Assembly: GCA_019057385.1 (NCBI GenBank)
Contig: JAHQJS010000004.1
Location: forward strand, 884,727-948,726
Reading direction: 5' to 3'
Origin: Candidatus Borrarchaeum weybense
GTDB taxonomy: Archaea > Asgardarchaeota > Sifarchaeia > Borrarchaeales > Borrarchaeaceae
DNA length: 64,000 nt
The notes under the pieces are model-generated. The model did no database searches and was not told where the DNA came from. It saw only the letters and a program-made list of their open reading frames with translations. A program made the translations under genes and the position numbers. Positions 14,162 to 30,343 of this stretch are shown here, in pieces (within the stretch, counting starts at the first letter, position 1; each line of letters begins with the position of its first letter).

Positions 14162-15553
14162 GTGAACTACCCCACCCTGACGGATGGAGCTTCCTGCGAG
14201 TCCTCCGAACCATATCCACGAATAGGACTGGGTACTTTCGTTTTACCTTTGGCTGTGTGTCGCAGATTATCAAGAAACACTTGATAGCCCGTCCACTTGG
14301 CATTCTGTGATAGGAAACGTTTCATAAGCACCACACAACTATTTTTGTCTCTGGCAATCACGTTACCACACTCACAGTTCATAACTCGTTCCCACAACGG
14401 CATATAATGGAGTTTACCACACATATAACACTCTCTGGAGGTATTGCGTTCGTCAAATTCTATTAGTCTTTTACCTACTCGTTTCGATTTGTAGGTTAGA
14501 AACTGTACGAACCGCCCCAGCGTACCCGTGCTCTGTGTAGCGCGGTTTAACCCCGATCTCATAAAATTTGGCACCTTCGTTGACTGTGCCATGGCTTTGA
14601 CCTGCAGTTCACCCACGATAAGCGTATTCGCCTTGGTGTTGTTCACTACCTTCGTGCTGAGTTTGTGCTGGAAATCCTTTAGTTGATCATCACGTTTCCG
14701 CTCGTACTTGCGTTTGATACGGTTGAAGAACTTCCACTTGTTGCTGAATTTCTTGCACCTATCCCGCCGTGCTTGTATCTTTGCGATTTTTTGATTCCAG
14801 TATTTATCGGGACGCTGGTTGTTCACCACCAAGAATTTCCCCTGAGAATTGACAGCCGTAATGATATGGGTAATTCCCAGATCAATGGCCTGATACCGTC
14901 CGTTATCCATAAAGAGCGGTTCTTCCATCTCGTACGTGATAGTCACAAAATACCGCTTGTTCTGCTCAGAAATGGCGACTTGTTTTACCTTCTTATCATC
15001 AAAAAAGAATTTCGCAGGGATGGCAAACTCCAAAGGTAGATCATTGTAGTTATGGGAAAAGGAGACTTTTCCGTGTTCTAACTTGAACCCCGACTGGTTA
15101 TAAACCATCGTAGTGAAATACTGCTTGCCTTTGAATCGCGGGAGTCTAGCATCGGCGTGTCCATTTTTTCGCAGGGCAAAGAACGACTCATAATCGGCGG
15201 CTAACGTCCTCAAAACATACTGTAAGACCTTCGAATATACCCAGCTATATTCCGGGTAGTGCTTTTTAATTATTGGCAGGTCGTTTTGCTGTTTTCGATA
15301 AGTCACGCCCTTAATGCCGTGTCTATAGGCGTCCCTTCGCTCGGCAAGGGCAAAATTATAGATGAGTCTGCACTTCTCCGAGAGTTTCCAAAGCACTTCT
15401 TCCTGTTCTAGTGTCGGAAAGATCCTAATTTTCTGTGTCAGTCTCATGGGCTTCACGCAGACTCTGGTATCAGTATTTCTACCCCAAAAAACTATATAAA
15501 ACTAGTGGCTTTCATCCCCCCAGCAGTCGGAAGGGGACTTCCCGCTGAACTAA
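14162..15553 (-). mobile_element. IS200/IS605-family (IS1341-like, tnpB-only) element
   Basis: Left end follows TTTAA with a GAAG-TCCCC..GGGGGGA hairpin. Right end GAAGCTCCATCCGTCAGGGTGGGGTAGTTCAC overlaps the tnpB stop. No tnpA. Confidence 0.9.
14167..15456 (-). CDS. tnpB: RNA-guided endonuclease TnpB
   Basis: N-terminal 'KIRIFPT..Q', RuvC-I AIDLG, IVGEL, DERNTS, Zn finger CYMC/CECG and RuvC-III RDKN. Confidence 0.95.
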   Translation of the reverse strand: MKPMRLTQKIRIFPTLEQEEVLWKLSEKCRLIYNFALAERRDAYRHGIKGVTYRKQQNDLPIIKKHYPEYSWVYSKVLQYVLRTLAADYESFFALRKNGHADARLPRFKGKQYFTTMVYNQSGFKLEHGKVSFSHNYNDLPLEFAIPAKFFFDDKKVKQVAISEQNKRYFVTITYEMEEPLFMDNGRYQAIDLGITHIITAVNSQGKFLVVNNQRPDKYWNQKIAKIQARRDRCKKFSNKWKFFNRIKRKYERKRDDQLKDFQHKLSTKVVNNTKANTLIVGELQVKAMAQSTKVPNFMRSGLNRATQSTGTLGRFVQFLTYKSKRVGKRLIEFDERNTSRECYMCGKLHYMPLWERVMNCECGNVIARDKNSCVVLMKRFLSQNAKWTGYQVFLDNLRHTAKGKTKVPSPIRGYGSEDSQEAPSVRVG

Positions 15554-15715: not shown

Positions 15716-16249
15716 TTGATGCATCTGTTATTCAAGATAGTGGTAGTAGGAGATGGAGCCGTAGGAAAAACAACTTTGGCAACTCATTTCGTTAAGGGTA
15801 AATTCATAGAGTATTACAAAATGACTATCGGTGTAGATTTTTTTGTGAAAGACGTTCAAATCGGAGAAGATCTGATCAAACTTCAAATCTGGGACACAGC
15901 TGGTCAAGAAAGGTTTGCCTTTATTCGTCCAACGTATTATTCAGGCACCAGTGGAGGATTCATGGTATTTGATGTAAATCGGAGCGAATCCTTTAAAAGT
16001 CTTGATAAGTGGCTCAAAGAGATTCACACGAATTGTGGAAAGATTCCACTTCTTTTGTTAGGCAATAAAATTGATTTAGATATGCGACAAGTAAAAAAAT
16101 CACAAGCTGAAAAATATGCGAAGAAAAATGATCTCCTATATTACGAAACATCCGCAAAAACAGGTGAACAGGTCTTTGACGTATTTTCTGAATTAGCTAA
16201 CATTTTGTACACCAGATACAAAGTAAAAGTTAAGGATAAGTCAAGTTAA
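15716..16249 (+). CDS. Rab-like small GTPase
   Basis: G1 GDGAVGKT, TIGVDF, G3 WDTAGQERF, G4 NKID and G5 ETSAK; no C-terminal prenylation cysteine. Confidence 0.95.
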   Translation: MMHLLFKIVVVGDGAVGKTTLATHFVKGKFIEYYKMTIGVDFFVKDVQIGEDLIKLQIWDTAGQERFAFIRPTYYSGTSGGFMVFDVNRSESFKSLDKWLKEIHTNCGKIPLLLLGNKIDLDMRQVKKSQAEKYAKKNDLLYYETSAKTGEQVFDVFSELANILYTRYKVKVKDKSS

Positions 16250-16622: not shown

Positions 16623-17378
16623 TTGAAGAGAATACATACTGGAATTAAAGGGCTCGATAATTTAATTGAAGGAGGCATTCCAGAAGGATGGGGTGTTCTT
16701 TTGACAGGCCCTACCGGGACAGGGAAGACAACTCTCGCTATACAATATTTGTATAACGGCTATAAAGACTATAATGAACCAGGAGTATATATCAGTCTAG
16801 AAGAAGATGTTCAGGATATCCTAAAAGTGATGGCTACATTCAATTGGGATTTAAACACTCTGCAAAGGGAAAAAAAACTAGTAATGATTAATGCTATTCC
16901 AAAAAAATCTCCCGATGCGACAGAGTACGTGATTAAAGCTCCTCTATTCTCTCAAACTTTCAGTTTTGAATCAATTTGTTCGTTATTAGAAGAAAAAATC
17001 AATGAAATAAACGCAACCCGCGTTGTTATTGATGGTTTAAGCGCACTAGCGCTTCTATATCAAGATGACTTTAAAATTCGGCAAGGTCTTTTGGATATGA
17101 CAAATACAATTCGCTCCTCAGGTTGCACGACGATTTATACAACAGAGATTCCTGAGGGATCGGTTGGAATCAGCAGATTTGGAGTCGAAGAATTCATTAC
17201 ACACGGTGTAATAATCCTCTATTATGTTCGAGAAGGAGGGAAAAGAACCCGCGCCATAGAGATTCGGAAGATGCGTGGTACCAGGCATGATCAATCATTG
17301 CATCCCTATGAAATTGCAGAAAAAGGAATTGATGTATTTTCCGAAGAAATAGCATTTTTAAGAGATAATTTATTATGA
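16623..17378 (+). CDS. Single-domain KaiC/RAD55-family ATPase
   Basis: TGIKGLD, GPTGTGKT, SLEE, VIDGL and RKMRG motifs. Confidence 0.9.
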   Translation: MKRIHTGIKGLDNLIEGGIPEGWGVLLTGPTGTGKTTLAIQYLYNGYKDYNEPGVYISLEEDVQDILKVMATFNWDLNTLQREKKLVMINAIPKKSPDATEYVIKAPLFSQTFSFESICSLLEEKINEINATRVVIDGLSALALLYQDDFKIRQGLLDMTNTIRSSGCTTIYTTEIPEGSVGISRFGVEEFITHGVIILYYVREGGKRTRAIEIRKMRGTRHDQSLHPYEIAEKGIDVFSEEIAFLRDNLL

Positions 17379-17416
17379 AAAACAATATGCTATAAGAAGA
17401 TATACTCTACAATGTC

Positions 17417-18727
17417 TTGGTGGGATTAATGAAAGAAATATTCCCAGATTATTACAGTGTTTTACTATATGGTCCTCCTGGCGTTGGCAAATCGGAGTAT
17501 ATCTTTGATTTAGTAGAATATTACCTAAAACATAATAAGAAAGTGATTTATATCACCACATCAAAAAGCCCAGAGCAGCTTATCGAATACGCGAAAAAAC
17601 GTAATCTTGATATCACGAAATATGAAAATAAAACACTTGTTTTTATTGACTGTTACTCATGGTCTGTTAGTAAAGAAGAGAAAAGACTCTCAGTTGATCA
17701 TCCAGCAAATCTAAATAAAATAAGCATTAATTTAGTAAAAGCTGTAAATACATTGGGGATGCCAGTTAGAATAATTTTTGATTCATTATCTACACTTTTT
17801 CTTCATAGCCAAGCAGACGTCATTCTGAAGTTTGTTCAAACCATCACATCTCGAATTAAATCAGAATATGGCTTCATCCTTCTTTCAATGCAAAAGGGGA
17901 TGCATAATCAAGAACATGTCACCACAGTGTATTCTATCATGGATGGCGTCATAGAAATGGATTTCGAGGAAGAAACACTCGGAAAACATTTAAGAATTCA
18001 TCATCTAGACGGCTTTCCACATGAATCCATTTGGATACCGTACAAGGTAACCCCTCATGGGACTGAGATAAATCCTGAAAACCTTCAAAAGATTGTTTCT
18101 TATAACGCAAAAACAGCACAACAATCAGCAAGATTCATTAAAAAAGCTGAAAAGTTGCTTTCAGATATTTTTGCGAAAGCTATGGTTGATAATCTTATTA
18201 AATCATATCTTACTAAGTTAGGAATAACACGTGACACTATTGAACAAAATCATGCCAAAAAAATTACGGAAATGATCCACAAAGATATAATTAAGTTTAC
18301 TGGAAAAGATCCTGGCAATTTGGAGAAAGTGTTATTAGGTGATTTTATTAAACGTAAAAAGATTCTTGTTGTAGAAGATAATGAAGATTTTCGAGTTGCC
18401 ATTAAAGAAATCCTAAAACTAAAGGATTATCAAGTTGTTACAGCAGTAAATGGTGTAGAAGCTATAGACTCCGCCGAAAGAGAGCATCCAGATCTGATTT
18501 TAATGGATATTGGTCTCCCTGTGCTTGATGGATATGAAGCCACACGCCGTTTGAAATCTAAGGAAACAACTAAAGATATTCCAATAGTGGCATTAACCTC
18601 ATTTGTTCTCAAAGGGGATGATGAAAAAGCATTAGCTGCTGGATGTGATGGCTATATTCCTAAACCAATCGATATGGGCGGATTTCCACAAAAGGTAGAG
18701 CGTTTTTTCGAAACTGGCGTTCTTTGA
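17417..18727 (+). CDS. KaiC/RAD55-like ATPase fused to a C-terminal receiver (REC) domain
   Basis: GPPGVGKS and IFDSLS in the ATPase; REC motifs ILVVEDN, PDLILMDIGLP, LTS and KP. Confidence 0.85.
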   Translation: MVGLMKEIFPDYYSVLLYGPPGVGKSEYIFDLVEYYLKHNKKVIYITTSKSPEQLIEYAKKRNLDITKYENKTLVFIDCYSWSVSKEEKRLSVDHPANLNKISINLVKAVNTLGMPVRIIFDSLSTLFLHSQADVILKFVQTITSRIKSEYGFILLSMQKGMHNQEHVTTVYSIMDGVIEMDFEEETLGKHLRIHHLDGFPHESIWIPYKVTPHGTEINPENLQKIVSYNAKTAQQSARFIKKAEKLLSDIFAKAMVDNLIKSYLTKLGITRDTIEQNHAKKITEMIHKDIIKFTGKDPGNLEKVLLGDFIKRKKILVVEDNEDFRVAIKEILKLKDYQVVTAVNGVEAIDSAEREHPDLILMDIGLPVLDGYEATRRLKSKETTKDIPIVALTSFVLKGDDEKALAAGCDGYIPKPIDMGGFPQKVERFFETGVL

Positions 18728-18728
18728 G

Positions 18729-18850
18729 TCACTTTTTTCGTCCCTGAGCCTGTCATTCATCCCTGTCTTCGAAGGCGTGGGACCTCTCGGGTTTTGTCTC
18801 ATGCACAAGAACGTGTGCACCGCGTGGTGCGAAGAACATTCCGCCTTGTA
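18729..18850 (-). ncRNA. Structured repeat copy 1 (candidate ncRNA of the RAMP/Cas1 locus)
   Basis: Gapless match to copy 2 (100 of 122 identical by manual count). Covarying stems; TTATAA at 18871-18876. Confidence 0.7.
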
Positions 18851-18930
18851 GTTAAAACATTTGCTGGTTATTATAAGAGTCATGAGCATGATTTCGAGCA
18901 TTCCTATACCTCTAGTATCCGTGTTTCTTT

Positions 18931-19221
18931 TTAAGAGAGTCCACAAAATTTGTTTACGTTATCCACAAATTCTTGATCAAAGGGTTTCTCAATTAACTTC
19001 TTTTTCTTTTGATGCGTAAGTTTTTTTATTTCGCGTTCTCTTTGAATTGCCTGACGTTGGGTTCGGAATTTTTCTACATAGTACAATTTCTTGACTTTGT
19101 ATCTTTTAAGATATCTGGCGCCTTTCCCATCTAAATGGAGTTTGAGGCGCTCGAAGATATCTTTAGTATAACCTGTGTAGAACGTTTTATTTTTACAGAG
19201 AATTACGTAGACGTAAAACAC
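18931..19221 (-). CDS. GIY-YIG nuclease (UPF0213-like), about 96 aa
   Basis: FYVYVILC...FYTGYT.D...RL..H..GKGARY...E. A GTG start at 19221 follows a GGTGA RBS; the longer ORF-track start reads through repeat copy 2. Confidence 0.88.
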   Translation of the reverse strand: MFYVYVILCKNKTFYTGYTKDIFERLKLHLDGKGARYLKRYKVKKLYYVEKFRTQRQAIQREREIKKLTHQKKKKLIEKPFDQEFVDNVNKFCGLS

Positions 19222-19228
19222 TGGGGTA

Positions 19229-19350
19229 TCACCTTTTTCGTCCTTATACCTGTCATTCTTAGCCATCATCTGAGGCGTGGGACCTCTCAGGTTTAGTCTC
19301 ATGCGCAAGAACGTGTTTTCCGCGTAGTGCGAAAAACATTCCGTCTTGTA
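19229..19350 (-). ncRNA. Structured repeat copy 2
   Basis: Offset exactly 500 bp from copy 1; TTATAA at 19371-19376, the same spacing as in copy 1. Confidence 0.7.
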
Positions 19351-19426
19351 ACCTGTATAGCAGTTAGTGATTATAAAATGTGATATCATATCCCTCTGCA
19401 TTATTTTGACCTCGATTTAAATATCT

Positions 19427-20236
19427 CTAAATACTTGCTAAATCGTTTATGTAAAGATTAACCATTAAGAGTAAGTGATTTTTCAGCGAGGAAAAGCCAT
19501 AACTGAGAGCCTCATTAATTTTCTGCAATTCTTGAGACTTACGAATATAGGTATAAAGTGCAAAGAGAGAATGTTGCCGCTTCTCAATGTCACTCACTAG
19601 CGCTTGAAAATCAATTTTTTCTATTTCCGAAATGCGATAGCGTGATGTCGCTTTCCAACGAAATTTTCGAGATATACTGGAAGACAACCTGTCATAATAT
19701 TGGAGAGTTGACAATAAAGGTACCTCTGTGTCATCAATCTCGTAGTTATGATGATTTTCAACTAATTGATGGATATATTCATCACTGATAGAAACCTCAT
19801 TATAGATTTTGCTGTTATGTCTCTCGGTATGGACGAAATCATGTAGAAGCATGGCAATCAGGAGTTTTTGTTGTGTGTCTGAGAGTTTAGGGAGCATTTT
19901 TCTGATGGTGATTTTTCTCGAGACGAAGAGAGGCTTCTTGTGGAGTTTTTTCACTTCTTTCCATTGTATGCGTCCCATGCCTTCATGGGTATAGCGTCCG
20001 AGGCGATCCAGAGAGATTGCAGTTTCAAGTTTATGTTCTGGAACAATAAACTCGATATTACCATACCAAGCCCTGAAGGTCATAGGTGCCCGTCTTTCGC
20101 CTTTTGTAAGTTTACCGAAGGCTCTAGGTCGCCCATGAATTGTTATAACTCCCAGACCAGTAATTCCAAATCTTCTTCGCTTAGAAACTACAGGCGTTTT
20201 CGTTATTCCTGTTAATTTAACCCAGTTTTTTACCAT
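19427..20236 (-). CDS. Minimal RAMP (Cas5-like) domain fused to a Cas10-type permuted HD nuclease
   Basis: N-terminal strand 'KLTGITKTPV' and G-rich loop LGRYTHEGMGRI, then LLHDF..H, HH, YDRLSS and a C-terminal SLKNHL. Confidence 0.75.
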   Translation of the reverse strand: MVKNWVKLTGITKTPVVSKRRRFGITGLGVITIHGRPRAFGKLTKGERRAPMTFRAWYGNIEFIVPEHKLETAISLDRLGRYTHEGMGRIQWKEVKKLHKKPLFVSRKITIRKMLPKLSDTQQKLLIAMLLHDFVHTERHNSKIYNEVSISDEYIHQLVENHHNYEIDDTEVPLLSTLQYYDRLSSSISRKFRWKATSRYRISEIEKIDFQALVSDIEKRQHSLFALYTYIRKSQELQKINEALSYGFSSLKNHLLLMVNLYINDLASI

Positions 20237-20258
20237 TTCTAATCCTCTTTATAGTGTT

Positions 20259-20287
20259 TATCCCGTTAAAAATGATATAACGGGATA
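20259..20287. promoter_or_regulatory. Perfect 10-bp inverted repeat TATCCCGTTA-N9-TAACGGGATA
   Basis: Lies between repeat copy 3 and the RBS of the RAMP-HD gene. Could be a terminator, processing hairpin or operator. Confidence 0.55.
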
Positions 20288-20331
20288 TCTAAACGTATCG
20301 GTTTCTTTACCTTTTGTTCGTAAATTGGATA

Positions 20332-20455
20332 TCACTTTTATCGTCCCGTTGCCTGTCATCCGTCCCCATCAGTACTGGAGGCGTGGGACCTCTCAGATGG
20401 TTCAGTCTCATGCGCAAGAACGTGCCACCCGCGATACGCAAGCAGCAGACCATCA
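20332..20455 (-). ncRNA. Structured repeat copy 3 (most divergent)
   Basis: Shares CACGTTCTTGCGCATGAGAC, GAGAGGTCCCACGCCT, ATGACAGG, GGACGA and GTGA; the 5' hairpin has a different sequence but stays paired. Confidence 0.65.
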
Positions 20456-20496
20456 GGGATGAGAAAAAAGAAATAAAATGAAATAGTGCCGATTCC

Positions 20497-21300
20497 TTAA
20501 GCATTTGAAGCCCTTCGGGTATGTAATGAGACTACAGTTTCCCTCCAATCCTCGATGTTATCAAGCGCAATTGACTCAGCTTTAGTTTTTTCAGAGAACT
20601 TATAGATACCATCATTTCGCTCTAACTTTTTCTCAATGTCAACGTTTTGGAGATCAAAGTCCAAAAGTTTAACCTGTCCATAGCCTGCATTCTTACCGCC
20701 ACCAAGAGTTTCGATATAGAGCAATGACTCAATGAGAAATTTAATTTCCTCATCAGTTAATTGTGTCACATCGATAGAGAAGGTGAAGTAGCCGCTGAAA
20801 TAACTTTGTCGAAAATCCTGAATTGGAACGCCATCAAAACTTAAGGCTATCCTTGTTTCGCTGGCGATGTGAACCTTCTGCACCGCTACATTCGTCTCAT
20901 AGTCTTTATGAGAGATTGAGGTAATGGGATCTGCCGAGACAGAGATACGAGACTCTTTGTGAAAACTGCCGAAGATACGTTGTAGCATGCAAGGGGGATC
21001 ACAACTACCCAGTACATGAAATCCCACAGGCATCAATTTCGTACCATCCTTGAGTTCGGTTTTTTCACTGGTATGGCAAACTTCAATCCCACAATCATAC
21101 GCAAGTTTCATAGCTGCATGTCGTAGCATGCCACGCAGACCCTTGATGTAGTACACTTTTGTATTGAAGACCTTATCTCCGTTTACATAAGGAATTTCGC
21201 CGAGAAGTAACATCGTAGAATTCTTTTGGATAGAGGCATTTAGAGGCTTGGCAATCGGGGTATAGGCACGAACTACAATCTGTTTTTTAGTGGTTTTCAT
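20497..21300 (-). CDS. cas7: Cas7-group (Csm3-like) RAMP protein
   Basis: 'IVVRAYTPI', 'IKGLRGMLRH', Cys/His cluster with 'C..RIFGS', 'ETRIAL' thumb and G-rich loop LGGGKNAGYGQV. Confidence 0.85.
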   Translation of the reverse strand: MKTTKKQIVVRAYTPIAKPLNASIQKNSTMLLLGEIPYVNGDKVFNTKVYYIKGLRGMLRHAAMKLAYDCGIEVCHTSEKTELKDGTKLMPVGFHVLGSCDPPCMLQRIFGSFHKESRISVSADPITSISHKDYETNVAVQKVHIASETRIALSFDGVPIQDFRQSYFSGYFTFSIDVTQLTDEEIKFLIESLLYIETLGGGKNAGYGQVKLLDFDLQNVDIEKKLERNDGIYKFSEKTKAESIALDNIEDWRETVVSLHTRRASNA

Positions 21301-21345
21301 TTCTCTAACCTCGTTGATTTTTCAAATATACTTTTTGCAACCAGA

Positions 21346-21365
21346 TATATAAACCTATCGCTTTC
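21346..21365 (-). promoter_or_regulatory. Putative BRE/TATA promoter of cas7
   Basis: Minus strand AAAGCGATAGG-TTTATATA, about 45 nt upstream of the ATG. Confidence 0.5.
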
Positions 21366-21625
21366 TATACCTTTTATTAGTATAATGGAGAATTAAATTA
21401 ACTCCTTTTAAAATTTAAAGGATTTTATCGGCTTTATTTAATAACGTTGAGTTATGACGCCAAAAATGACCGTTCATTCAACTTGCTATCATTAAGAATA
21501 ATTATTCAATAAAACAAAGATATTATCCTTTTAGTAAAAACAAGCATTTTGTAAAGGTTCATAAGTTAAAAATTAATGGTCTAAATTAATTTATGTTAAA
21601 AAATTGCATAATCATCATATATATT

Positions 21626-24600
21626 TTAGGTTAAGAGTCGAGTCATAGGCACAGGGGGCCCCTTGCCTATCGATTTACAAAATCGCTCGATGCTTCGGAA
21701 CATCTCAAAGATCTCCTGAAACTGTCCCTCATCTGATAAATAGACAAAGGGGATAAATGGAGTTTCGTTTAACAAAAATCCGGCAAGATAACTGGCACAA
21801 CGATTCATAGCTTTCCTTAAAGTCATATAATTGCGATCATAATAGACGACCTCATCCATCAGTTCTTGAAACAATAACCACATCTTTTCCTCAGCACTTT
21901 CTTTTAATGTATACACTTCTTCGCCACGGGGAGTGTAAGATAACTTGAAATCATCCTTGGTGATATCCCCCTTTTTACATGCTTTTACATAAGCGTACCT
22001 GAACATGGGAAGGAACATTTCACGGAAATCAAGCACCGCACCAATAGAGATTTTTTGTCCTGCAGCTCTCCGATAATGGAGTACAAGTTCACCCGGAAAC
22101 CACGAAAAACCGACATCCCATAACACCTTTTGACATTTTTTCAATAGTTGTCTCTTTAGGGCATTAATTCCTGCACTAAAGGGAGAACGCCCTTTGGCTT
22201 CTCCCATAAATAGCGAGGACGCTACATAACGATCATAGGTACGACTGCGGCATTGCATCGCAGTATCTTCTAAGATGAGTTTCCACACCTGCCAAACCAA
22301 TCGCTCTCCATCTGCTTCATAACTGAGTAAGTTTTCTCGACTACCCGTCCAGTGGATAACTGTATGGGCGACAACGTTCATTTGACCTGCGAATAGCCTA
22401 TTTACATCCGCAGATTCTAACATACCATCCTTTTCAGCTTGCAGTGTAAGGAGTGCATTGCTTGCTCGTTTGCTCATATCTATTTGCCATGCCAATAATA
22501 GGCCATCTTCCTTTTCCCTGATGAAGTCAGCTCTTGCCTTTAATTTCTCAGTTAAATTCTCATCTTGAGAGATCTTATATCCTTCAAACGGGACACGAAT
22601 TGAGTCGTCTCGCTCCTCGCCATACACAATTCGTCCTTTAAGTTTTATACGCATAAATTCGGAAAGACCTACATCGCCTATTACTTTTATCCGCTCTATA
22701 GCATCCAACCGATGGCTACGTGAAAAGCCTTCCTTCGATATATAATGAAGCATATGTCGATTAATCGTGAGTTCATCCCCTTCCCTCACAGTCAGCCATA
22801 CATATTGTCGTTGAAGCTCACCCTCTGTCTTTGCAACCACTTTCACAGGTTTAATAGACCTTTTTAAGATGATCTCAAGTGCCTCTTGAAGAAGATCTTT
22901 CGTTCCTGGCTCGACCTTAATCCTACCATCATGAAGCAAAAAATACAGCGAATTACACTGAGGACATAGTGTGTACTGAGCATATGACATCGGTTCCTTT
23001 AATACTGCCTTTTTACAGATGCGACAGATTGGAGTTCCTTGTGTTGTTCGTTCAAAATCCCTAAAAGTCCTGCTTTTTCTTTTTCGAGAGGAATTATGAA
23101 ATCGACAGGCAGCGGTACAGAGCGTGATATCGGTAGTCATGGCACGGTGTCCAAGCAGTCTATTATATTCTGCTGATAATTCACATAAAAATCGTTGATC
23201 CACTCGTTCCTTTTCATAGTCATTTGGACAGGGCATTCTAAAGACACAGGAACCACAGGTTTTTAACATATGTTCTGGAATAGCGGTTTCTTCGCTACAT
23301 ATTCGTTTCACAGGACGTCCCACACCCTTCCCTCTCGGAAAACGTACCACTTTCCCTTGTACGTCTAAGTCGAGCACATTCCAAATAACTGTGGTAAGAC
23401 CGACTGAGTGTTCATAGTGAGCAGAGATCCGTTTATGAAGGTCTTCATAGGTAGTGATTGTTCCGTCCTTTAGTGTCGAACTAATAACGTCTTGGATAGT
23501 TTTGTGTGGTGATGGTTTTTTTTGAGGGTAAAATCGCACTTTTGATCCCCGTTCGAGTTCACTTTTTGTTGTAAGTAACTCACAGATGTGCTCTGCAGCG
23601 TCAACCAGTAATGGATTCTCCATTGTTACAAAGGCATGAACCGCCTCAGCGATCCAGGCTGCGGTTCTTCTGCTTTCTTCGGCATCTCCTAGCCACATAT
23701 TCACCTCATTTGCCGCTGTTTCGAGCTCGTAATCCTCGATTAAAGCTTTTATAAAATAGGTGTAATGTTTGGTGCTATACTTTCCATTGATGTTGTAAAC
23801 AGTCTCTGCGATTATGTCAGTAATCGCCCAATAGGCAGCTTCATTCATGGAAAATCGCTGTTCCTGAAAATAACAGCGTATATTGTTTCCAACAACCGCT
23901 GGCAGTAGGAACTGGCTTGCCCACCTTCCGATAGTCGTCGCTTTATATTTGCCACCCTTCTGTTCTACCAATTTACAGGATATGAGTTCGCGGAGATACA
24001 ATTTCACATCATTTTTTAACTGCTTCTCATATCGCTCAAGTTCTTCAATTTTATGCTCTTTTAAAAGATCGAGAAAAAACAAAATGGGTTTCCTTAGCTT
24101 GATGGAATCCTCATAGTGTTTCAGAATACGATCATAAACACAGTCAAAAAATCCAATTACAAACTGTTTATACTGCTCGATTTCTAGATCGTCGTAGTTG
24201 TCATTATCGTTCAAAAGCGAAAGAAGTTTGTTACTGTTCCGTTTGGAAACCTTAAAACTTTGATGCTGATACAGTTCGGTCTTGATTACTTCTGTATACT
24301 TCCTGATCAGTGCTTTGTGCTCGTAATACATGTAAAATCGTTGCAGATGCCTGATGAGCACACCACTAGACACAGCACCGCGTGACACTCTATACAGAAT
24401 AATATCCTTTAAATTGTGCTTTGAATGGCTCCTCAAACGTTCTTCCTCGAACTCTATTCCTTTTTCAGTGATTTTGATCCTTTTTTCTCCATAAAATGTT
24501 TCTATGCCGCTTTTAATGATCAGGTTGGCATATCCGATTTCGTAAAATTCTGGTCGTGCCGTCCTACCAACCATTGATTCCAAATCCTGTGGACTATAAA

Positions 24601-25597
24601 TCGTCGCATCGGCATCGGCGATAATCACCCGTAACACCGGAGCACTGATCCCCTCTTTATATTCAGTTGTAAAAAGCACGTTAATTTTGCCTTCTTGAAA
24701 GGCTGTCATCCGTTTTTGTCGTTCAACAGCACTTAACCCAGCATGACTGAAGGAAACTGTAATATCAATTCCCTCTTCCTCGAATTTGCAACTCAATTCA
24801 GCAGCCCTAAGCTCTGCCTTTTTCCTTGAGGCACAGAACACCAGTACACATCTTATATCAGTCTGTTGGGTACTCACTTCCATCGCGTATGTACCCTTAA
24901 CTAATTGTGCAATGACGTACATTTGTTCATCGTCATCGGAGACCTTGATAATAGGTTCAATCACAATTTCTGAATGACGTTCATCAGTCTCAATGATCTC
25001 AGCCCCAAGCCAGTCTGCTACCTCACCAATATCCTTGACCATCGCAGTCAGGTAAAGTATTTGAGGTCGGGATCGCAACCACGATTGCGTTTTGACGATA
25101 ACATCCTCCAAACGACTCCCACGCTGCATTTTGCCTACGTAATGCATCTCATCAATAACAACAAGCCCTAATTTTCTCAATAATGAGTATTCATAATTCC
25201 TCATTAACATGCCGTTAAAGGATTCAAAGGTAGTAACAATGATTTCCGCCTTCTTTAATACACGATGGGGTGGCTTCTCCTCTCCCGTCACTTTGACGAT
25301 GCGATACTTTCTGCGGTAGCGTGGCAGGCTGTCAAACCATGCCACAAGACGGTTGTAGGTCTGATCGATCAGCCGTCGATTCGGCACCAAAAACACGCAT
25401 CTTTGTTTTATCCCGAGTATAAAAGTGGCACATATAAGGGGGATGAGTGTCTTACCTGCGCCGGTTGGGGCTTTCACCAGCACATCCTTTTCTTTAATAA
25501 AGGCGGCAATAGCCTTCTCCTGAAATTCAAAGAGTTGTTGATATCCTGCCCGCTTGAGTCGTTCCCATACCGAATACCAATCCATGATGCGTGGCAT
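21626..25597 (-). CDS. Hel308/Ski2-like SF2 helicase + wHTH + Zn fingers + divergent Cas1 (aCas1-like) fusion
   Basis: Q motif FEFQ, APTGAGKT, DEMH, SHAGLS and GRTARP; winged helix; CGSC, CRIC and CPQC. The C-terminal ~390 aa has the Cas1 pattern LLSYE..., VLH..., LDFREMF..., IT.DDF, TLR.AM...A..LA.FL....F.PF. Confidence 0.8.
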   Translation of the reverse strand: MPRIMDWYSVWERLKRAGYQQLFEFQEKAIAAFIKEKDVLVKAPTGAGKTLIPLICATFILGIKQRCVFLVPNRRLIDQTYNRLVAWFDSLPRYRRKYRIVKVTGEEKPPHRVLKKAEIIVTTFESFNGMLMRNYEYSLLRKLGLVVIDEMHYVGKMQRGSRLEDVIVKTQSWLRSRPQILYLTAMVKDIGEVADWLGAEIIETDERHSEIVIEPIIKVSDDDEQMYVIAQLVKGTYAMEVSTQQTDIRCVLVFCASRKKAELRAAELSCKFEEEGIDITVSFSHAGLSAVERQKRMTAFQEGKINVLFTTEYKEGISAPVLRVIIADADATIYSPQDLESMVGRTARPEFYEIGYANLIIKSGIETFYGEKRIKITEKGIEFEEERLRSHSKHNLKDIILYRVSRGAVSSGVLIRHLQRFYMYYEHKALIRKYTEVIKTELYQHQSFKVSKRNSNKLLSLLNDNDNYDDLEIEQYKQFVIGFFDCVYDRILKHYEDSIKLRKPILFFLDLLKEHKIEELERYEKQLKNDVKLYLRELISCKLVEQKGGKYKATTIGRWASQFLLPAVVGNNIRCYFQEQRFSMNEAAYWAITDIIAETVYNINGKYSTKHYTYFIKALIEDYELETAANEVNMWLGDAEESRRTAAWIAEAVHAFVTMENPLLVDAAEHICELLTTKSELERGSKVRFYPQKKPSPHKTIQDVISSTLKDGTITTYEDLHKRISAHYEHSVGLTTVIWNVLDLDVQGKVVRFPRGKGVGRPVKRICSEETAIPEHMLKTCGSCVFRMPCPNDYEKERVDQRFLCELSAEYNRLLGHRAMTTDITLCTAACRFHNSSRKRKSRTFRDFERTTQGTPICRICKKAVLKEPMSYAQYTLCPQCNSLYFLLHDGRIKVEPGTKDLLQEALEIILKRSIKPVKVVAKTEGELQRQYVWLTVREGDELTINRHMLHYISKEGFSRSHRLDAIERIKVIGDVGLSEFMRIKLKGRIVYGEERDDSIRVPFEGYKISQDENLTEKLKARADFIREKEDGLLLAWQIDMSKRASNALLTLQAEKDGMLESADVNRLFAGQMNVVAHTVIHWTGSRENLLSYEADGERLVWQVWKLILEDTAMQCRSRTYDRYVASSLFMGEAKGRSPFSAGINALKRQLLKKCQKVLWDVGFSWFPGELVLHYRRAAGQKISIGAVLDFREMFLPMFRYAYVKACKKGDITKDDFKLSYTPRGEEVYTLKESAEEKMWLLFQELMDEVVYYDRNYMTLRKAMNRCASYLAGFLLNETPFIPFVYLSDEGQFQEIFEMFRSIERFCKSIGKGPPVPMTRLLT

Positions 25598-25719: not shown

Positions 25720-27678
25720 TTGTTACTTAGGAAGGTGGGGCTTATGGGACAGAAGTTTGTGACGGTTCATGGCAAGAAATATTATGTTAAGGGTGGTAAG
25801 CTAGACTTTCGTAATTGGGCACTTAAGAATATCGCCAAAATTGAAGGGTTAGAAAATCTTACCAACCTTAGGGAGTTATACCTTTATAGTATTCATTTAG
25901 AATCGATTGAAGGTCTAGGCAATCTCACAGAACTTGAAAAATTAAGTCTTGGCGGCAATAGAATAAGAGAAATTAAGGGATTAAGAAATCTTACTAACCT
26001 CCAAGAACTCGACCTTAGTGGGAATAAGATAGAGGTGATCAAGGGACTGGAAAACCTCACTAAACTTCAGGTACTAAATCTTTATAACAATGGGATACGG
26101 GAAATCAAGGGATTAGATCAACTCACCAAACTCCAAGAACTCAACCTTGGTAGGAATTATATAAGGGAAATCGAAGGATTGGATCTCTTCTCAAACCTCC
26201 GCATACTGGATCTAAGTAGTAATTGTTTTACAGTATTCAAGGGAAGCGTGCGTCACGGTACATATTGTATTTCCGAAATCCAGGGGCTGGAAAATTTGAA
26301 AAACCTACATACGCTGAATCTTGCAAAAAATCAGATCAAGGAAATCACCGGTTTGGAAACGCTCACAAACCTCACAAACTTCGATCTGAGTCATAATCAA
26401 ATTACCGAGATCAAGGGATTGGAGAACCTTACCAAGCTCCAAGTACTCAATCTGTATGGGAATCAGATAGATGAATTCAAAGGTCTTGAGCACCTTACAA
26501 GGCTCAAAGAACTTGATCTTAATTGGAATCCAATAAGGGCTGGAGAAAGACATTTACTAAAAGCAAATGCAAAGAAAGTGGTAAAATATTGTCAAGACAA
26601 AAAGGCCGACAAGTTCCCGAGTGTAGAAGTCAAGGGAAGAACATTTCCTATACTAACCGAGGTTATGGATCTCAGAAATTTGAAGATTACCGATATTGCA
26701 GAGATTAAAGGATTGGAGGCGTTTACTAAAGTCACCGTGTTAGACCTTAGGGGCAATCAAATAACAGCTATTAGTAACCTACATCATCTTACCCAACTTC
26801 AAAAACTGAATCTTAGTGGGAACATGATCACCGAAATTAACGGTCTAGAACAACTTACCAAGCTCAAAGAATTACATATTTCGAATAACCAAATAAATGA
26901 GATCAAAGGCTTAGAGACACTCACTGGACTCCAAAAATTAAACCTCAGTGGCAATCAAATAGAAGAAATCAGTAACTTAGAGCCTCTTGCAAATCTCCAG
27001 GAACTAAATCTTGAGAGAAATCAGATTAAGACGATTAAGCAACTGGAACAACTCACCACCCTCAAAACATTAAACCTCAAGAAAAATCAAATACAGGAAA
27101 TTGAAGGACTAGATAGCCTTGTAAATCTCACCACACTCGAGCTTGAGTGGAATCAAATCAGCGAGATTAAAGGACTGGATAATCTTGTAAATCTCATCAA
27201 ACTTGATCTTGAAGAGAATCCGATCACCGAGATTAAAGGACTGGATAACCTTAAAAGTCTTAAGAACGTCTACATTACTATAGACCTTATAAGAGATGAT
27301 GAATGGGACATAGTTTGCAGTAAAGATGCACAGGTTGTTGTGAGATACTGCCAAAGAAAAACGAGAATGGAAAAGGGGGAAGATGAACTGGAAGATGAAC
27401 TGGAAGATAAACTGGATGAAGGAAGATTTGAATCGGCATTTGATACTTGGCGACACGAAAGAGATTTGGAAAGGTATTTTGATATTAATCTTCATGCAAG
27501 TGATTTTGATATTGATGAGGATTGGGAGATGTATAAATTAGATGAGGGTATTTCGATAGGACTAGTATATTTTATGGAAGACATATTCCGAGAAGAACTG
27601 CGTGGTAATAGGCTTTCACAACACGAACTAATTGAGAAAATAAATGAGTGGCTTAGACCATATTTAACTACAGAGTAG
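25720..27678 (+). CDS. SDS22-like leucine-rich repeat protein with two LRR modules and an acidic C-terminal domain
   Basis: 22-aa repeats LxxLxLxxNxIxEIKGLxx. The likely start is ATG 25744 (MGQKFV) after a GGTGG RBS. Confidence 0.92.
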   Translation: MLLRKVGLMGQKFVTVHGKKYYVKGGKLDFRNWALKNIAKIEGLENLTNLRELYLYSIHLESIEGLGNLTELEKLSLGGNRIREIKGLRNLTNLQELDLSGNKIEVIKGLENLTKLQVLNLYNNGIREIKGLDQLTKLQELNLGRNYIREIEGLDLFSNLRILDLSSNCFTVFKGSVRHGTYCISEIQGLENLKNLHTLNLAKNQIKEITGLETLTNLTNFDLSHNQITEIKGLENLTKLQVLNLYGNQIDEFKGLEHLTRLKELDLNWNPIRAGERHLLKANAKKVVKYCQDKKADKFPSVEVKGRTFPILTEVMDLRNLKITDIAEIKGLEAFTKVTVLDLRGNQITAISNLHHLTQLQKLNLSGNMITEINGLEQLTKLKELHISNNQINEIKGLETLTGLQKLNLSGNQIEEISNLEPLANLQELNLERNQIKTIKQLEQLTTLKTLNLKKNQIQEIEGLDSLVNLTTLELEWNQISEIKGLDNLVNLIKLDLEENPITEIKGLDNLKSLKNVYITIDLIRDDEWDIVCSKDAQVVVRYCQRKTRMEKGEDELEDELEDKLDEGRFESAFDTWRHERDLERYFDINLHASDFDIDEDWEMYKLDEGISIGLVYFMEDIFREELRGNRLSQHELIEKINEWLRPYLTTE

Positions 27679-27831
27679 GGAGTTTCCTTGAGGTGATTTT
27701 AGAAAACTTGAGAGAGATCGCAGATTCAATAGCTACATAATCTCAAGTAAATAATACAAAGCGTTTCGAACATTCAATCCAGTAACTGCACTATAAGGAA
27801 TCAATTTTTCCTCTTCAACAGAGGCTATGAA

Positions 27832-27897
27832 GATGCCCAAGAGATTGTAAAATACTGTCAAGAAAAGGCTCGAAAGGTAAAACAAGAAGGCGGTTGA
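27832..27897 (+). pseudogene. Orphan 3' end of an LRR gene (DAQEIVKYCQEKARKVKQEGG*)
   Basis: Matches the C-terminus of the next LRR gene (DAKKVVRYCQEKANKAKEGG*). Confidence 0.75.
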
Positions 27898-27919
27898 GGG
27901 AAACAGAGGGAGTTAAAGG

Positions 27920-30343
27920 ATGGGAAAAGAGGAGTTTGTGACGGTTAATGGCAAGAAATATTACATCATAGAGAACAACTATACAAAGCGTCTAACCTTA
28001 GATCTTAACCATGCCAAAATTTCTGATTTTAAGGATGTTAAGGGATTAGATACTTTGACGGACTTACAAGTTCTGATCCTTGATCACAATCTGCTAAGAC
28101 AAATCGAGGGGGTAGATGCTCTCGCTAATCTAGAAGATTTAGTCCTCTCACACAACAAAATTACAGAGATAACGGGATTAGAGACCCTCACCAATCTCAA
28201 AGCATTAGATCTTAGATATAATCAGATCATAGAGATCAAGGGGTTGGAGAATCTAAAGGACCTCTATTATCTTAACCTTGACGGCAATCAGATCACAGAG
28301 ATTAAGGGATTGGAGACCCTCACCAATCTTCGTGAACTACATCTAGGATATGTTGATATTTTTGAAAGGCTTTCACGGAGATTATATGAAGCATATGGTG
28401 GAGATTTAGAAGAGTTTAAAGAAGAGAAGCATCGCAATCGTATAAGAGAGATCAAGGGATTGGAGAGCCTCACTAACCTTAAACTACTAGATCTACGTGG
28501 CAATAAGATAACAGATCTCAAGGGACTGGAAAATCTTACAAATCTGGAAGAAGTATTTCTTGAAGACAATCCGTTACAAGCTGCAGATCAGATTAAATAT
28601 AGCAGGGATAGGTATTACACGTCGTCGATTGTGGAATATTGTCAAAAGAAAAAAGAGGGTAAAATCCCCTTTGTAACAATTAAAGAAATAAAATATTATG
28701 TGTATGAAGCGGAATTGGGAGAAGCCTTATACCTTAGCGAGTTAGGAATTACCGATACCGCCGAAATTGAAGGATTAGAAGCACTTACTCAACTTATAAA
28801 CCTCAATCTATCCTCAAATCAAATCACCGAAATTAAAGGACTAGAGAATCTTTCTAATCTGGAAGAACTAAACCTTGAGAACAATCCGTTACGAGAGAAT
28901 GAGAAACATCTGATAGATCAAAGTGCTCAGGTAATTGTAAAATACTGTAGGGACAAAAAGGAGGGTAAACTGAAATATGTGACAGTTGGAGAAAAGCAAT
29001 ATCAGGCTAGCAACGACATACTCGACCTTAGCGATCAAGGTATCACTGATATAACTGAAATTAAGGGTTTAGAATTCCATTTTAGTCTAAGGAAACTATT
29101 TCTTAATAATAATAACATAAAAGAGATTAAAGGCTTAGAGAAACTCTCTTCTCTACAGGAATTACATCTCAGTAATAATCAAATCAAAGAGCTCAAAGGA
29201 CTCAAGAATAATACACTTCTCGAAACATTAAATCTTAATGGGAACCAGATAGAAGATCTCAGTGAATTAGAGCATCTTAAAAACCTAAGAGAATTATTTC
29301 TTAATAACAATCACATAAAAGAGATTAAAGGTTTAGAGAACCTTCATAATATACATAAATTAGATCTTCGCAACAACCAGATACAAGAACTTAAAGGATT
29401 GGAAAACATTTCTAATTTAGTAGATCTGTTCCTCGAAGACAACCAGATACAAGAGATCAAAGAGTTGGACAACCTTATTCATCTTAAAGAGCTTCATCTA
29501 GCAAGAAATCTCATAAAAGAGATTACAGGGCTAGTAAAACTTACTAATTTAACAAACCTTAATCTTAGTTATAATCAAATTGAAGAACTTAGGGGCCTTG
29601 AAACGCTTACTCATCTCAAAGAATTATACCTTGAAGGGAATCCGATAAGAGAATGGTCTATGGCATTTATGAAAGTGTTTGATGGAGATAAAGAAACGTG
29701 GTATACGCGAGATGTGCAAGATATCGTAAATTATTGTAAAGATAAGAAAGGGGGCAAAATACCTTTTGTTACAGTCAAAGGAAAAAGGTATCATGCTTAC
29801 GATGACGATCGAACTGAATACTACTATCATCATTTCATCTTAGATGACCTCGGCAACAAATTAGAACCTCAACTTAGATTAAACCTTAGCGGGTTAGGAA
29901 TTATTGATATTAAAGAGATTAAGGGCCTAAAAGATCTTAAAAACCTCCAAGTATTAGATCTCAGTCAGAACAAGATCAAGGAAATCGCCAGGCTGGGATC
30001 CCTTGAAAATCTCGCGATCTTACATCTTGAAGAAAATATGATCACAGAAACCAAAGGGTTGAAACCTCTAAAAAATCTCCAAGAACTCTATCTCAACAAT
30101 AATCAGATACTTGAGATCAAAGATGTGGAGTCTTTCAAAAACCTCTATTTGCTAAATCTTGAGAATAATCAAATAACAGAGGTAAAAGGTTTGGAGGCGT
30201 TAATTAACCTTGAGGAACTTAGACTTGAAGGAAATCCACTAGAAGTCGATGAACGACAGTTTATTTATATTGGCAGAACTGACGCAAAAAAAGTTGTGAG
30301 GTACTGCCAAGAAAAAGCTAACAAGGCAAAGGAAGGCGGGTGA
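27920..30343 (+). CDS. SDS22-like LRR protein with four capped LRR modules
   Basis: Repeated N-cap FVTV.GKKY, 22-aa LRRs and C-cap NP....A..IV.YC..KK. Confidence 0.92.
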   Translation: MGKEEFVTVNGKKYYIIENNYTKRLTLDLNHAKISDFKDVKGLDTLTDLQVLILDHNLLRQIEGVDALANLEDLVLSHNKITEITGLETLTNLKALDLRYNQIIEIKGLENLKDLYYLNLDGNQITEIKGLETLTNLRELHLGYVDIFERLSRRLYEAYGGDLEEFKEEKHRNRIREIKGLESLTNLKLLDLRGNKITDLKGLENLTNLEEVFLEDNPLQAADQIKYSRDRYYTSSIVEYCQKKKEGKIPFVTIKEIKYYVYEAELGEALYLSELGITDTAEIEGLEALTQLINLNLSSNQITEIKGLENLSNLEELNLENNPLRENEKHLIDQSAQVIVKYCRDKKEGKLKYVTVGEKQYQASNDILDLSDQGITDITEIKGLEFHFSLRKLFLNNNNIKEIKGLEKLSSLQELHLSNNQIKELKGLKNNTLLETLNLNGNQIEDLSELEHLKNLRELFLNNNHIKEIKGLENLHNIHKLDLRNNQIQELKGLENISNLVDLFLEDNQIQEIKELDNLIHLKELHLARNLIKEITGLVKLTNLTNLNLSYNQIEELRGLETLTHLKELYLEGNPIREWSMAFMKVFDGDKETWYTRDVQDIVNYCKDKKGGKIPFVTVKGKRYHAYDDDRTEYYYHHFILDDLGNKLEPQLRLNLSGLGIIDIKEIKGLKDLKNLQVLDLSQNKIKEIARLGSLENLAILHLEENMITETKGLKPLKNLQELYLNNNQILEIKDVESFKNLYLLNLENNQITEVKGLEALINLEELRLEGNPLEVDERQFIYIGRTDAKKVVRYCQEKANKAKEGG

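What the first reader, a model, noticed from the sequence alone, without database searches (positions are those of the whole stretch)
18729..20455. The three repeats show covarying stems and G-U pairs that favour a minus-strand RNA
The 5' hairpin differs in sequence but stays paired. Copy 2 has UGUUUUUCGC/GCGGAAAACA, copy 3 has UGCUGCUUGCG/CGCGGGUGGCA (four G-U pairs) and copy 1 has GCACC/GGUGC. Copies 1 and 2 close with CAAGR/UCUUG. In the 3' half, GUCC(C) can pair with (G)GGAC and GCCU with AGGY around a 21-24-nt loop ending AUGAC. An alternative stem YGAGAGG/CCU..R also covaries (CGA/UCG versus UGA/UCA), suggesting a pseudoknot or a switch. The most variable stretch is about 14-17 nt after CGCCU. 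Copies 2 and 3 still share UGAUGG there, so it is not clearly a spacer-like guide.
Basis: partly seen in the sequence, partly recalled or inferred. Interest (0 to 1): 0.85.

Follow-up and report, generated by a model that had tools for sequence, protein, structure and literature searches.

The report
Structured small RNA of ARAMP loci
The three repeats are copies of a conserved, pseudoknotted small RNA that sits beside the genes of ARAMP, a CRISPR-derived system of Asgard archaea described as having no repeat array and, in the papers I could read, no RNA, so it may be that system's missing RNA partner.

Summary
The three ~125-138-nt repeats are real and belong to a 29-copy family in this genome. 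I aligned 55 distinct copies from Borrarchaeota, Sifarchaeota and Promethearchaeota assemblies. A diverged form occurs in Heimdall-type loci.

Supported by covariation:
- the 5' hairpin;
- a GAGG/CCUC hairpin;
- a pseudoknot between that hairpin's loop (SAC) and the 3' tail (GUS).

G-U pairs outnumber A-C pairs about 4.5 to 1, which favours the minus strand. Rfam gives no match.

The repeats lie in an ARAMP locus: helicase-Cas1, a Cas7-like RAMP, and a RAMP fused to a Cas10-type HD domain. ARAMP is described as array-less. One RNA copy follows the RAMP-HD gene in every locus examined and usually has its own TATA box. A second form lies after the Cas7-like gene.

My best reading is a dedicated RNA partner of the ARAMP effector. 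Binding and any guide role are inferred, not shown. Earlier notes of this scan had already flagged this RNA beside ARAMP on other DNA.

The parts
20327..20464 (-). Copy 3, U-type RNA. It starts UCUCAUCC 33 nt after the stop of the Cas7-like gene and has no TATA box at the spacing seen in D-type copies. The 5' UCUCAU (20464-20459) can pair with AUGAGA (20411-20406).
   Evidence: CM R1 scores it 128.5 bits.
19223..19349 (-). Copy 2, D-type small RNA gene. It starts ACAAGACGG and ends GGUGAUACCCC, 1 nt before the GTG start of the GIY-YIG gene.
   Evidence: CM R1 scores it 132.4 bits.
18724..18849 (-). Copy 1, a second D-type small RNA gene. Its 5' hairpin has 2 mismatches in the family register. 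Its 3' end meets the stop of the convergent KaiC-receiver gene.
   Evidence: CM R1 scores it 119.1 bits.
19370..19378 (-). TATA box (TTTTATAAT) of copy 2. It starts about 29 nt upstream of the C of CAAG.
   Evidence: A TATA-like motif lies 28-35 nt upstream in 22 of 40 D-type copies and in 0 of 15 U-type copies.
18869..18876 (-). TATA box (TTATAATA) of copy 1, at the same spacing as in copy 2.
19314..19338 (-). Covarying 5' hairpin (P1) of copy 2: arms 19338-19329 and 19323-19314. The equivalent arms are 20447-20438 / 20432-20423 in copy 3 and 18838-18829 / 18823-18814 in copy 1.
   Evidence: helix 3, 8 of 10 pairs with changes on both sides, 91.5% paired.
19272..19286 (-). P3 hairpin GAGGU/GCCUC of copy 2. 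Its loop CAC (19279-19277) pairs with the 3' tail. The hairpin spans 20378-20392 in copy 3 and 18772-18786 in copy 1.
   Evidence: helix 5 is 98.9% paired.
19230..19232 (-). 3' strand (GUG) of the pseudoknot in copy 2. The equivalent bases are 20333-20335 in copy 3 and 18730-18732 in copy 1.
   Evidence: pair 91-145 reads GC 26, CG 23. The analogous pseudoknot holds in the Heimdall-type alignment.
19427..20236 (-). p269: an N-terminal RAMP domain fused to a Cas10/Csm1-type HD domain. This is the gene the RNA always follows.
   Evidence: VIA-align Z 8.4 to the Csm1 HD domain (6ifk_A) and Z 5-6 to RAMP proteins.
20497..21300 (-). Cas7-like RAMP gene.
   Evidence: Pfam RAMPs, 4.1e-9; PADLOC Csm3, 4.3e-10.
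21626..25597 (-). Fusion of a Hel308-like helicase and a Cas1-like domain (1323 aa).
   Evidence: DEAD and Helicase_C domains; PADLOC Cas1, 9.2e-7, on residues 1028-1276.
18931..19221 (-). GIY-YIG nuclease-domain gene (96 aa) between copies 2 and 1. It is unique in this genome.
   Evidence: (GIY-YIG, 7.2e-16).
21356..21389 (-). Promoter-like box upstream of the Cas7-like gene. A similar box lies between copy 3 and p269, at about 20281-20330.
   Evidence: That it is a promoter is inference.

Best explanation
The repeats are genes for a structured, pseudoknotted small RNA transcribed from the minus strand. The RNA belongs to the ARAMP module, which comprises helicase-Cas1, a Cas7-like RAMP and a RAMP fused to a Cas10-type HD domain.

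**Shown**
- The fold is conserved: a long 5' hairpin, a central hairpin GAGG/CCUC, and a pseudoknot between that hairpin's loop and the 3' tail.
- The strand is the minus strand.
- The RNA is tightly linked to the RAMP-HD gene.
- Two forms exist. The D-type usually has its own TATA box at a fixed distance. The U-type lies after the Cas7-like gene.

**Inferred**
- The RNA is bound by the RAMP proteins and acts as the system's crRNA-like scaffold, or as a fixed-specificity RNA.
- It would recruit or control the HD nuclease.
- Whether a variable 3' extension serves as a guide is open.
For: **Family**
- 29 copies in this genome.
- 58 aligned copies from five or more Asgard assemblies and from metagenomes.

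**Structure**
- In alignment A5, 124 cells changed on both sides against 45.9 in shuffles (0 of 500 shuffles reach it). The covariation score is 0.239 against 0.149, and at most 0.10 when partners are slid.
- The Heimdall-type homolog has the same architecture: 89 cells against 30.2, score 0.294.

**Strand**
- G-U against A-C cells are 195:43 and 83:21.
- The RNA runs in the same direction as the ARAMP genes.
- A TATA box lies 28-35 nt upstream in 22 of 40 D-type copies and in 0 of 15 U-type copies.

**Linkage**
- The module RAMP, RNA, p269, RNA recurs about 10 times in this genome, with paralogs of 36-88% identity.
- Every Borr-type p269 locus with enough downstream flank has a copy just downstream.
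- Most Heimdall-type loci do too: 38 of 59 gave a match, 28 of them full-length.
- In a sample of 151 genomes of the phylum, the RNA was found only in the two families that carry Borr-type p269.

**Proteins**
- A Cas7-like RAMP.
- p269 is a RAMP domain plus a Csm1-type HD domain. This is a type III-like minimal effector, and such effectors normally need an RNA.

**Literature**
- ARAMP is described as array-less and 'enigmatic' (PMC8730458, PMC12669027).
Against: - No expression data: no RNA run was available for this organism.
- No RNA-protein binding was tested or is testable here.
- Single-sequence folding energies are no better than shuffles (z between -1.5 and +0.8), so the case for structure rests on comparison alone.
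- No internal variable segment is long enough to be a guide.
- The D-type 3' flanks and the conserved blocks match nothing else in the genome.
- Seven of the 29 copies are solo or partial and lie away from ARAMP genes.
- The lower part of the 5' helix and a long-range CGUUCUU/RGGGACG helix are mutually exclusive, and the data do not decide between them.
- I could not read the original ARAMP paper (Makarova et al. 2020), so I cannot exclude that it mentions these repeats.
Confidence: 0.55

Rival explanations
1. It is a cis-acting RNA element of the ARAMP transcripts, not a trans-acting partner. Possible roles are a 3'-UTR stabiliser, a processing site, an attenuator or a leader.
For: - U-type copies lie 33 nt after the stop of the Cas7-like gene and have no TATA box at the spacing seen in D-type copies.
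- Heimdall-type copies overlap or abut the 3' end of the p269 reading frame.
- Copy 2 ends 1 nt before the GIY-YIG start codon. In L052 and L080 an ORF starts a few nt after a D copy.
Against: - D-type copies have a TATA box at a fixed distance and can occur in tandem as promoter-plus-RNA units.
- Most D copies in this genome have no close downstream gene on the same strand.
- The fold is elaborate and pseudoknotted, with invariant blocks of 15-25 nt. That is more than a terminator or stabiliser usually needs.
Confidence: 0.17
2. It is a self-cleaving or otherwise catalytic RNA of a new class that processes ARAMP transcripts.
For: - It has a compact pseudoknotted fold with invariant junction nucleotides.
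- Copies flank a gene on both sides.
- No known family matches, so a new class cannot be excluded.
Against: - It resembles no known ribozyme class in Rfam at E up to 1.
- No cleavage-site signature could be identified.
- D copies already start at their own promoter, so 5' processing is not needed.
Confidence: 0.07
3. The repeats act as DNA, as sites used by the Cas1 fusion. On this reading they form a CRISPR-like array with long repeats and gene-sized inserts.
For: - The layout is repeat, p269, repeat, GIY-YIG, repeat, next to a Cas1 fusion.
- Other loci have extra tandem copies.
Against: - Copies within a locus are only 72-87% alike. The U and D forms are separate lineages, each closer to the same form in other loci.
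- The tandem 'spacers' are just promoters.
- G-U pairs outnumber A-C pairs, and compensatory changes argue for an RNA of one strand.
- Heimdall-type loci carry a single copy.
- Loci without the Cas1 fusion still have the RNA.
Confidence: 0.05
4. It is a non-autonomous mobile element (MITE or SINE-like), or a short protein-coding ORF.
For: - The family is multi-copy, with 7 solo or partial copies.
- One reading frame is open in 43 of 51 copies.
Against: - I saw no terminal inverted repeats and no target duplications.
- Copies are divergent and occupy a fixed position relative to p269.
- 1-2-nt indels shift the frame in the 3' part.
- Hairpin changes are compensatory rather than synonymous.
- In Heimdall loci the ORF ends at varying positions within the element.
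- The conserved motif was not found in viral contigs.
Confidence: 0.04

Closest known systems
ARAMP (Asgard RAMP) loci. Source: Makarova et al. 2020, CRISPR J, read here only through PMC8730458 and PMC12669027.
   Same: - The gene set matches: a Cas7-like RAMP, a Cas5-like RAMP with a nuclease domain, and a distinct Cas1.
- The host is an Asgard archaeon.
- There is no CRISPR array at the locus.
   Different: The sources I could read describe ARAMP as array-less and mention no RNA component. Here a conserved structured RNA gene accompanies the RAMP-HD gene.
Type III CRISPR crRNA with Cas7 (Csm3), Cas5 (Csm4) and the Cas10 HD domain
   Same: - The proteins are RAMPs plus a Cas10-type HD domain.
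- The RNA's 3' part, ACGAGAAA, resembles the ACGAGAAC that begins the S. epidermidis crRNA-derived RNA substrate quoted in PMC5389561. This is a lead only, as 7 of 8 nt can match by chance.
   Different: - There is no array of short identical repeats.
- The RNA is 125-190 nt long, folded and pseudoknotted, and has its own promoter.
- No spacer has been identified.
- No Cas6 gene and no Cas10 Palm domain was identified in the genes I examined.
omegaRNA of TnpB/IscB, and tracrRNA or sgRNA-like scaffolds
   Same: It is a structured scaffold RNA encoded at, or overlapping, the 3' end of the effector gene. Locus-specific sequence follows the scaffold.
   Different: - The effector is a class 1-like RAMP set, not a RuvC nuclease.
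- There are no transposon ends.
- A guide function of the flank is not shown.
CreA-type CRISPR-resembling RNAs and other exapted CRISPR RNAs (reviewed in PMC8730458)
   Same: It is a non-array RNA working with Cas-derived proteins.
   Different: CreA keeps recognisable CRISPR repeat halves. This RNA is unlike the genome's own 37-nt CRISPR repeat.

Membership tests
ARAMP locus | Cas7-like RAMP gene | tested here: met
   Pfam RAMPs at 4.1e-9. PADLOC Csm3 at 4.3e-10.
ARAMP locus | Second, Cas5-like RAMP with an associated nuclease | tested here: met
   p269 residues 1-108 match RAMP folds at Z 5-6. Residues 119-269 match the Csm1 HD domain at Z 8.4. H, D and HH residues are invariant. Assigning the RAMP domain to Cas5 specifically is inference.
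ARAMP locus | Distinct Cas1 homolog in the locus | tested here: met
   PADLOC Cas1 at 9.2e-7 on residues 1028-1276 of the 1323-aa helicase fusion. Pfam Cas1 is not reached at E 0.01.
ARAMP locus | No CRISPR array at the locus; Asgard host | tested here: met
   There is no array in the window. The only array found lies about 735 kb away on the same contig. Homologs are named Borrarchaeum, Promethearchaeota and Heimdallarchaeota.
CRISPR array / crRNA | Short (about 25-40 nt), near-identical repeats regularly spaced by unique spacers of similar length | tested here: not met
   The repeats are 125-138 nt and 72-87% alike. Spacing ranges from 24 to 1100 nt. The tandem gaps are promoters.
Any Rfam 15 family, including known ribozymes and riboswitches | Covariance-model match | tested here: not met
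   No match at E up to 1 in the window region or in five related loci.
MITE or IS end | Terminal inverted repeats and target-site duplication | tested here: not met
   Copies are direct repeats with no inverted termini in the repeat scan or alignments. The flanks are unrelated.
omegaRNA-type guide scaffold | The flanking sequence acts as a guide for the adjacent nuclease | not testable with these tools
   The position at the 3' end of the effector gene fits. The flanks match nothing else in the genome.

The most novel reading that the evidence does not exclude
ARAMP is not RNA-less. This pseudoknotted RNA would be a new kind of class 1 guide scaffold: a single, promoter-driven, non-array RNA. 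Its 3' extension, or an exposed block, would direct a minimal Cas7 plus Cas5-Cas10HD effector. That would make ARAMP a programmable or fixed-target RNA-guided nuclease system, possibly coupled to the helicase-Cas1 fusion.
Probability: 0.15. Interest if true: 0.9.

Novelty: new variant of a known kind. Interest (0 to 1): 0.74.

Why it matters
ARAMP and its haloarchaeal relative HRAMP are the main CRISPR derivatives whose mode of action is unknown. They have RAMP effectors, and in ARAMP a Cas1, but no array. Reviews call the mechanism enigmatic.

A conserved, structured RNA gene fixed next to the RAMP-HD gene across distant Asgard lineages gives a concrete candidate for the missing component. 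It turns the question into an experiment: co-express the two RAMP genes with the RNA and ask what is bound and cut.

If the RNA is a scaffold or guide, this would be a compact class 1-type RNA-guided nuclease. It would have a single-transcript RNA and an architecture not seen in CRISPR systems. The finding also explains spurious ORF calls over these repeats and assembly breaks in Asgard MAGs.

Tried and rejected
- **Rfam.** No match at E up to 1 in the window region or in five related loci.
- **RNA-seq.** No RNA holder was listed for this stretch, so expression and transcript ends could not be examined.
- **Original papers.** The ARAMP and HRAMP papers (PMC7307682, PMC6702361, and the DOI) are not held.
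- **Literature.** Searches for an ARAMP- or HRAMP-associated RNA found none.
- **Unanchored test of loop-to-tail pairing in Heimdall loci.** It had no power and was replaced by column-based counts. A regex extraction also failed.
- **Guide search.** D-type 3' flanks and the conserved RNA blocks give only chance-level matches elsewhere in the genome.
- **Terminal repeats.** There are none at the left edge of the loci, and no shared element between the left and right ends.
- **tRNA adjacency in this genome.** None was found, though aragorn detected only 17 tRNAs.
- **p269.** No hit in Pfam, NCBIfam or PADLOC, in the PDB by sequence profile, or in the ESM Atlas by features. Foldseek matches were weak. 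Only VIA-align gave the Csm1 HD match.
- **Hammerhead-like reading of CUGAGAG...GAAA.** Rejected by inspection, because the core does not fit.
- **Viral contigs.** The conserved 19-mer was not found.
Full report
**1. The observation**

The window holds three direct repeats on the minus strand, at 18724-18849 (copy 1), 19223-19349 (copy 2) and 20327-20464 (copy 3). The invariant 16-mer GAGAGGTCCCACGCCT occurs three times where 0.15 are expected.

Rfam 15 has no match at E up to 1, in this region or in five related loci.

**2. A family, not a local triplet**

An iterated nhmmer search finds 29 copies in the 4.18-Mb genome, 24 of them full-length. Most lie in pairs about 1.1 kb apart that flank paralogs of the 269-aa ORF at 19427-20236 (p269).

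Mapping all loci gives a module that recurs about ten times. It reads: [helicase-Cas1, 1323 aa], a Cas7-like RAMP, RNA (U-type), p269, RNA (D-type). The protein paralogs are only 32-88% identical, so these are old, diverged duplicates and not a recent burst.

A covariance model built on the 24 full-length copies (R1) finds the RNA next to every Borr-type p269 homolog with enough flank. These come from Borrarchaeum, Sifarchaeum and Promethearchaeota assemblies and from metagenomes. The result is 58 aligned copies, 55 of them distinct (alignment A5).

In a sample of 151 genomes of the phylum:
- R1 matches 6 genomes in two families.
- p269 relatives occur in 11.
- The R1-positive genomes are those of the families with Borr-type p269.
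- 140 genomes have neither.

Relatives are not independent, so I treat this as a description and not as a test. The conserved 19-mer occurs in 30 Asgard stretches among 185,579 species genomes. It also occurs in 3 bacterial ones, which chance would give, and in no viral contig.

**3. Structure**

I counted pairs on alignment A5 for a model with six elements:
- a U-type-only outer helix, UCUCAU/AUGAGA;
- a lower 5' helix, CAAGRCG/CGUUCUUG;
- the 10-bp hairpin P1;
- a CC(AUC)/(GAU)GG helix;
- the GAGGU/GCCUC hairpin P3;
- a pseudoknot between the P3 loop (SAC) and the 3' tail (GUS).

| Measure | Observed | Control |
|---|---|---|
| Cells changed on both sides | 124 | 45.9 in shuffles (0 of 500 reach it) |
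| Covariation score | 0.239 | 0.149 in shuffles; at most 0.10 with partners slid |

P1 has changes on both sides at 8 of 10 pairs. The pseudoknot pair reads G:C in 26 sequences and C:G in 23.

They also conflict with P3 and the pseudoknot.

A long-range CGUUCUU/RGGGACG helix is 97% paired but barely varies. It excludes the lower 5' helix, and I cannot decide between the two.

Single-sequence folding energies are unremarkable, with z between -1.5 and +0.8. The case for structure is therefore comparative.

**4. A diverged homolog in Heimdall-type loci**

More distant p269 homologs (30-47% identity, 312-399 aa as called) are followed by a conserved element of about 170-190 nt. It has:
- an AUCUCA...UGAGAU pairing;
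- a long covarying 5' hairpin;
- a GAGAGG-loop-CCUC hairpin enclosed by a second helix;
- pairing of that loop with a 3' GGUGAUA-like tail.

Loop and tail change together: ACCA/UGGU, UCCA/UGGA, UUC/GAA, GAUCA/UGAUU, UACCA/UGGUA. On alignment A6 there are 89 double-change cells against 30.2 in shuffles (0 of 500 reach it), and the score is 0.294.

Gene calls run p269 into this element, but the ORF ends at different points within it. In the Borr-type, one frame is open in 43 of 51 copies, yet 1-2-nt indels shift it and the hairpin changes are compensatory. The element is RNA, not coding sequence.

**5. Strand and transcription**

G-U against A-C cells in the helices are 195:43 for A5 and 83:21 for A6. 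That fits an RNA of the strand that also carries the ARAMP genes.

D-type copies have a TATA-like motif starting 28-35 nt upstream of the C of CAAG in 22 of 40 cases. U-type copies have it in 0 of 15. For copies 2 and 1 the boxes lie at 19370-19378 and 18869-18876.

Extra tandem D copies in other loci (L052, L080) are duplications of promoter plus RNA, not spacers.

The U-type copy starts 33 nt after the stop of the Cas7-like gene. It is followed by a promoter-like box that also occurs upstream of the Cas7-like gene. So the U-type RNA probably comes from the 3' end of the Cas7-like transcript. This last step is inference.

**6. What the locus is**

- The 267-aa gene is a Cas7-like RAMP.
- The 1323-aa protein is a Hel308-like helicase with a C-terminal Cas1-like domain.
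- In a model of p269 (pLDDT 78.8), the N-terminal 108 residues resemble RAMP proteins at Z 5-6. Residues 119-269 resemble the HD domain of Csm1/Cas10 at Z 8.4, rmsd 3.5 over 135 residues. Foldseek alone was weak.
- No CRISPR array lies in the window.

This is the ARAMP arrangement, described as an array-less, type III-derived system of Asgard archaea whose mechanism is 'enigmatic' (PMC8730458; PMC12669027). I found no paper describing an RNA for it, but I could not read the original 2020 paper.

The genome's one CRISPR array has a 37-nt repeat unlike this RNA.

**7. Mechanism**

A Cas7-like backbone protein together with a RAMP fused to a Cas10-type HD nuclease is, in type III systems, an RNA-dependent machine. 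The one conserved non-coding feature of the module is this RNA. It is fixed immediately downstream of the RAMP-HD gene in both distant subfamilies.

I therefore think it most likely (0.55) that the RNA is the effector's dedicated RNA partner. Binding is inferred. A guide role is open, for three reasons:
- The internal variable stretch is only 6-13 nt and is partly paired.
- The locus-specific 3' flanks of D copies run 50-100 nt to hairpin or T-rich sites but match nothing else in the genome.
- The conserved blocks have no complementary host site.

The 3' block ACGAGAAA resembles the ACGAGAAC that begins the S. epidermidis crRNA-derived substrate quoted in PMC5389561. A 7-of-8 match can arise by chance, so this is only a lead.

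The rivals are a cis-acting transcript element, a new ribozyme, DNA sites for Cas1, and a mobile element or micro-ORF. They are weighed in their own sections.

**8. Earlier notes of this scan**

Follow-ups on other DNA had already reported a conserved folded RNA beside ARAMP: e1-2566009 in this genome, and e1-5444047 and e1-5394846 in other genomes. I reached the ARAMP assignment from the literature and the RNA family from my own searches before reading them. They agree with my result, but they are not independent evidence.

This report adds:
- the tested fold with its pseudoknot;
- the two RNA forms and the D-type promoter;
- the strand test;
- the phylum-wide co-occurrence.

Noticed in passing
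window 18931-19401 (-), 18632-18946 (-), 20307-20504 (-): ORFs of 65-156 aa run across each repeat in the same frame, and one fuses copy 2 to the GIY-YIG gene. The frame is open in 43 of 51 family members. Gene callers will therefore produce spurious proteins here, and C-terminal extensions of p269 in Heimdall MAGs.
   Followed up: yes
L028, L124, L118 (same strand); L050, L043 (opposite strand), just after the RNA tail: In several Heimdall-type loci a tRNA gene begins within about 5-15 nt of the RNA's GGUGAYA tail. This could mark an integration site or a tRNA-type 3' processing signal. It is not seen in this genome.
   Followed up: partly
window 20281-20330 and 21340-21389 (-): The Cas7-like gene and p269 are each preceded by a similar box of about 45 nt (AAAAGGTAWAGAAASCGATASGTTTAKATATC), which looks like a shared BRE/TATA promoter. 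The same duplication occurs in other ARAMP loci of the genome.
   Followed up: partly
G000 contig C4, 148.4-152.1 kb (outside the window): A conventional CRISPR array of about 49 repeats. The repeat is ATTTCAATCCTTATTACTTAAGGAATTCTTTTGCAAC (37 nt) with spacing of 75-83 nt. It is unrelated in sequence to the ARAMP RNA.
   Followed up: partly
window 25720-30343 (+), and upstream of four other ARAMP loci: Leucine-rich-repeat protein genes of one paralog family lie next to the helicase-Cas1 end of 5 ARAMP-type loci. They may simply reflect the abundance of LRR genes in this genome.
   Followed up: no
window 14167-15456 (-): A TnpB-like gene (OrfB_IS605 and Cas12f1-like TNB domains) about 3 kb from the ARAMP locus. 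It is unrelated to the repeats.
   Followed up: no
window 15716-16249 (+), 16623-18727 (+): A Ras-family small GTPase gene (Pfam Ras, 6.3e-55) and two KaiC-like ATPase genes, one fused to a response-regulator receiver. These are typical Asgard content. The receiver gene's stop touches the 3' end of copy 1.
   Followed up: no
G009, G031, G041, G020 (genome search handles): In fragmented relatives many RNA copies sit within 100-300 nt of contig ends, and RNA copies outnumber detectable p269 genes. The paralogous ARAMP loci probably break MAG assemblies.
   Followed up: no
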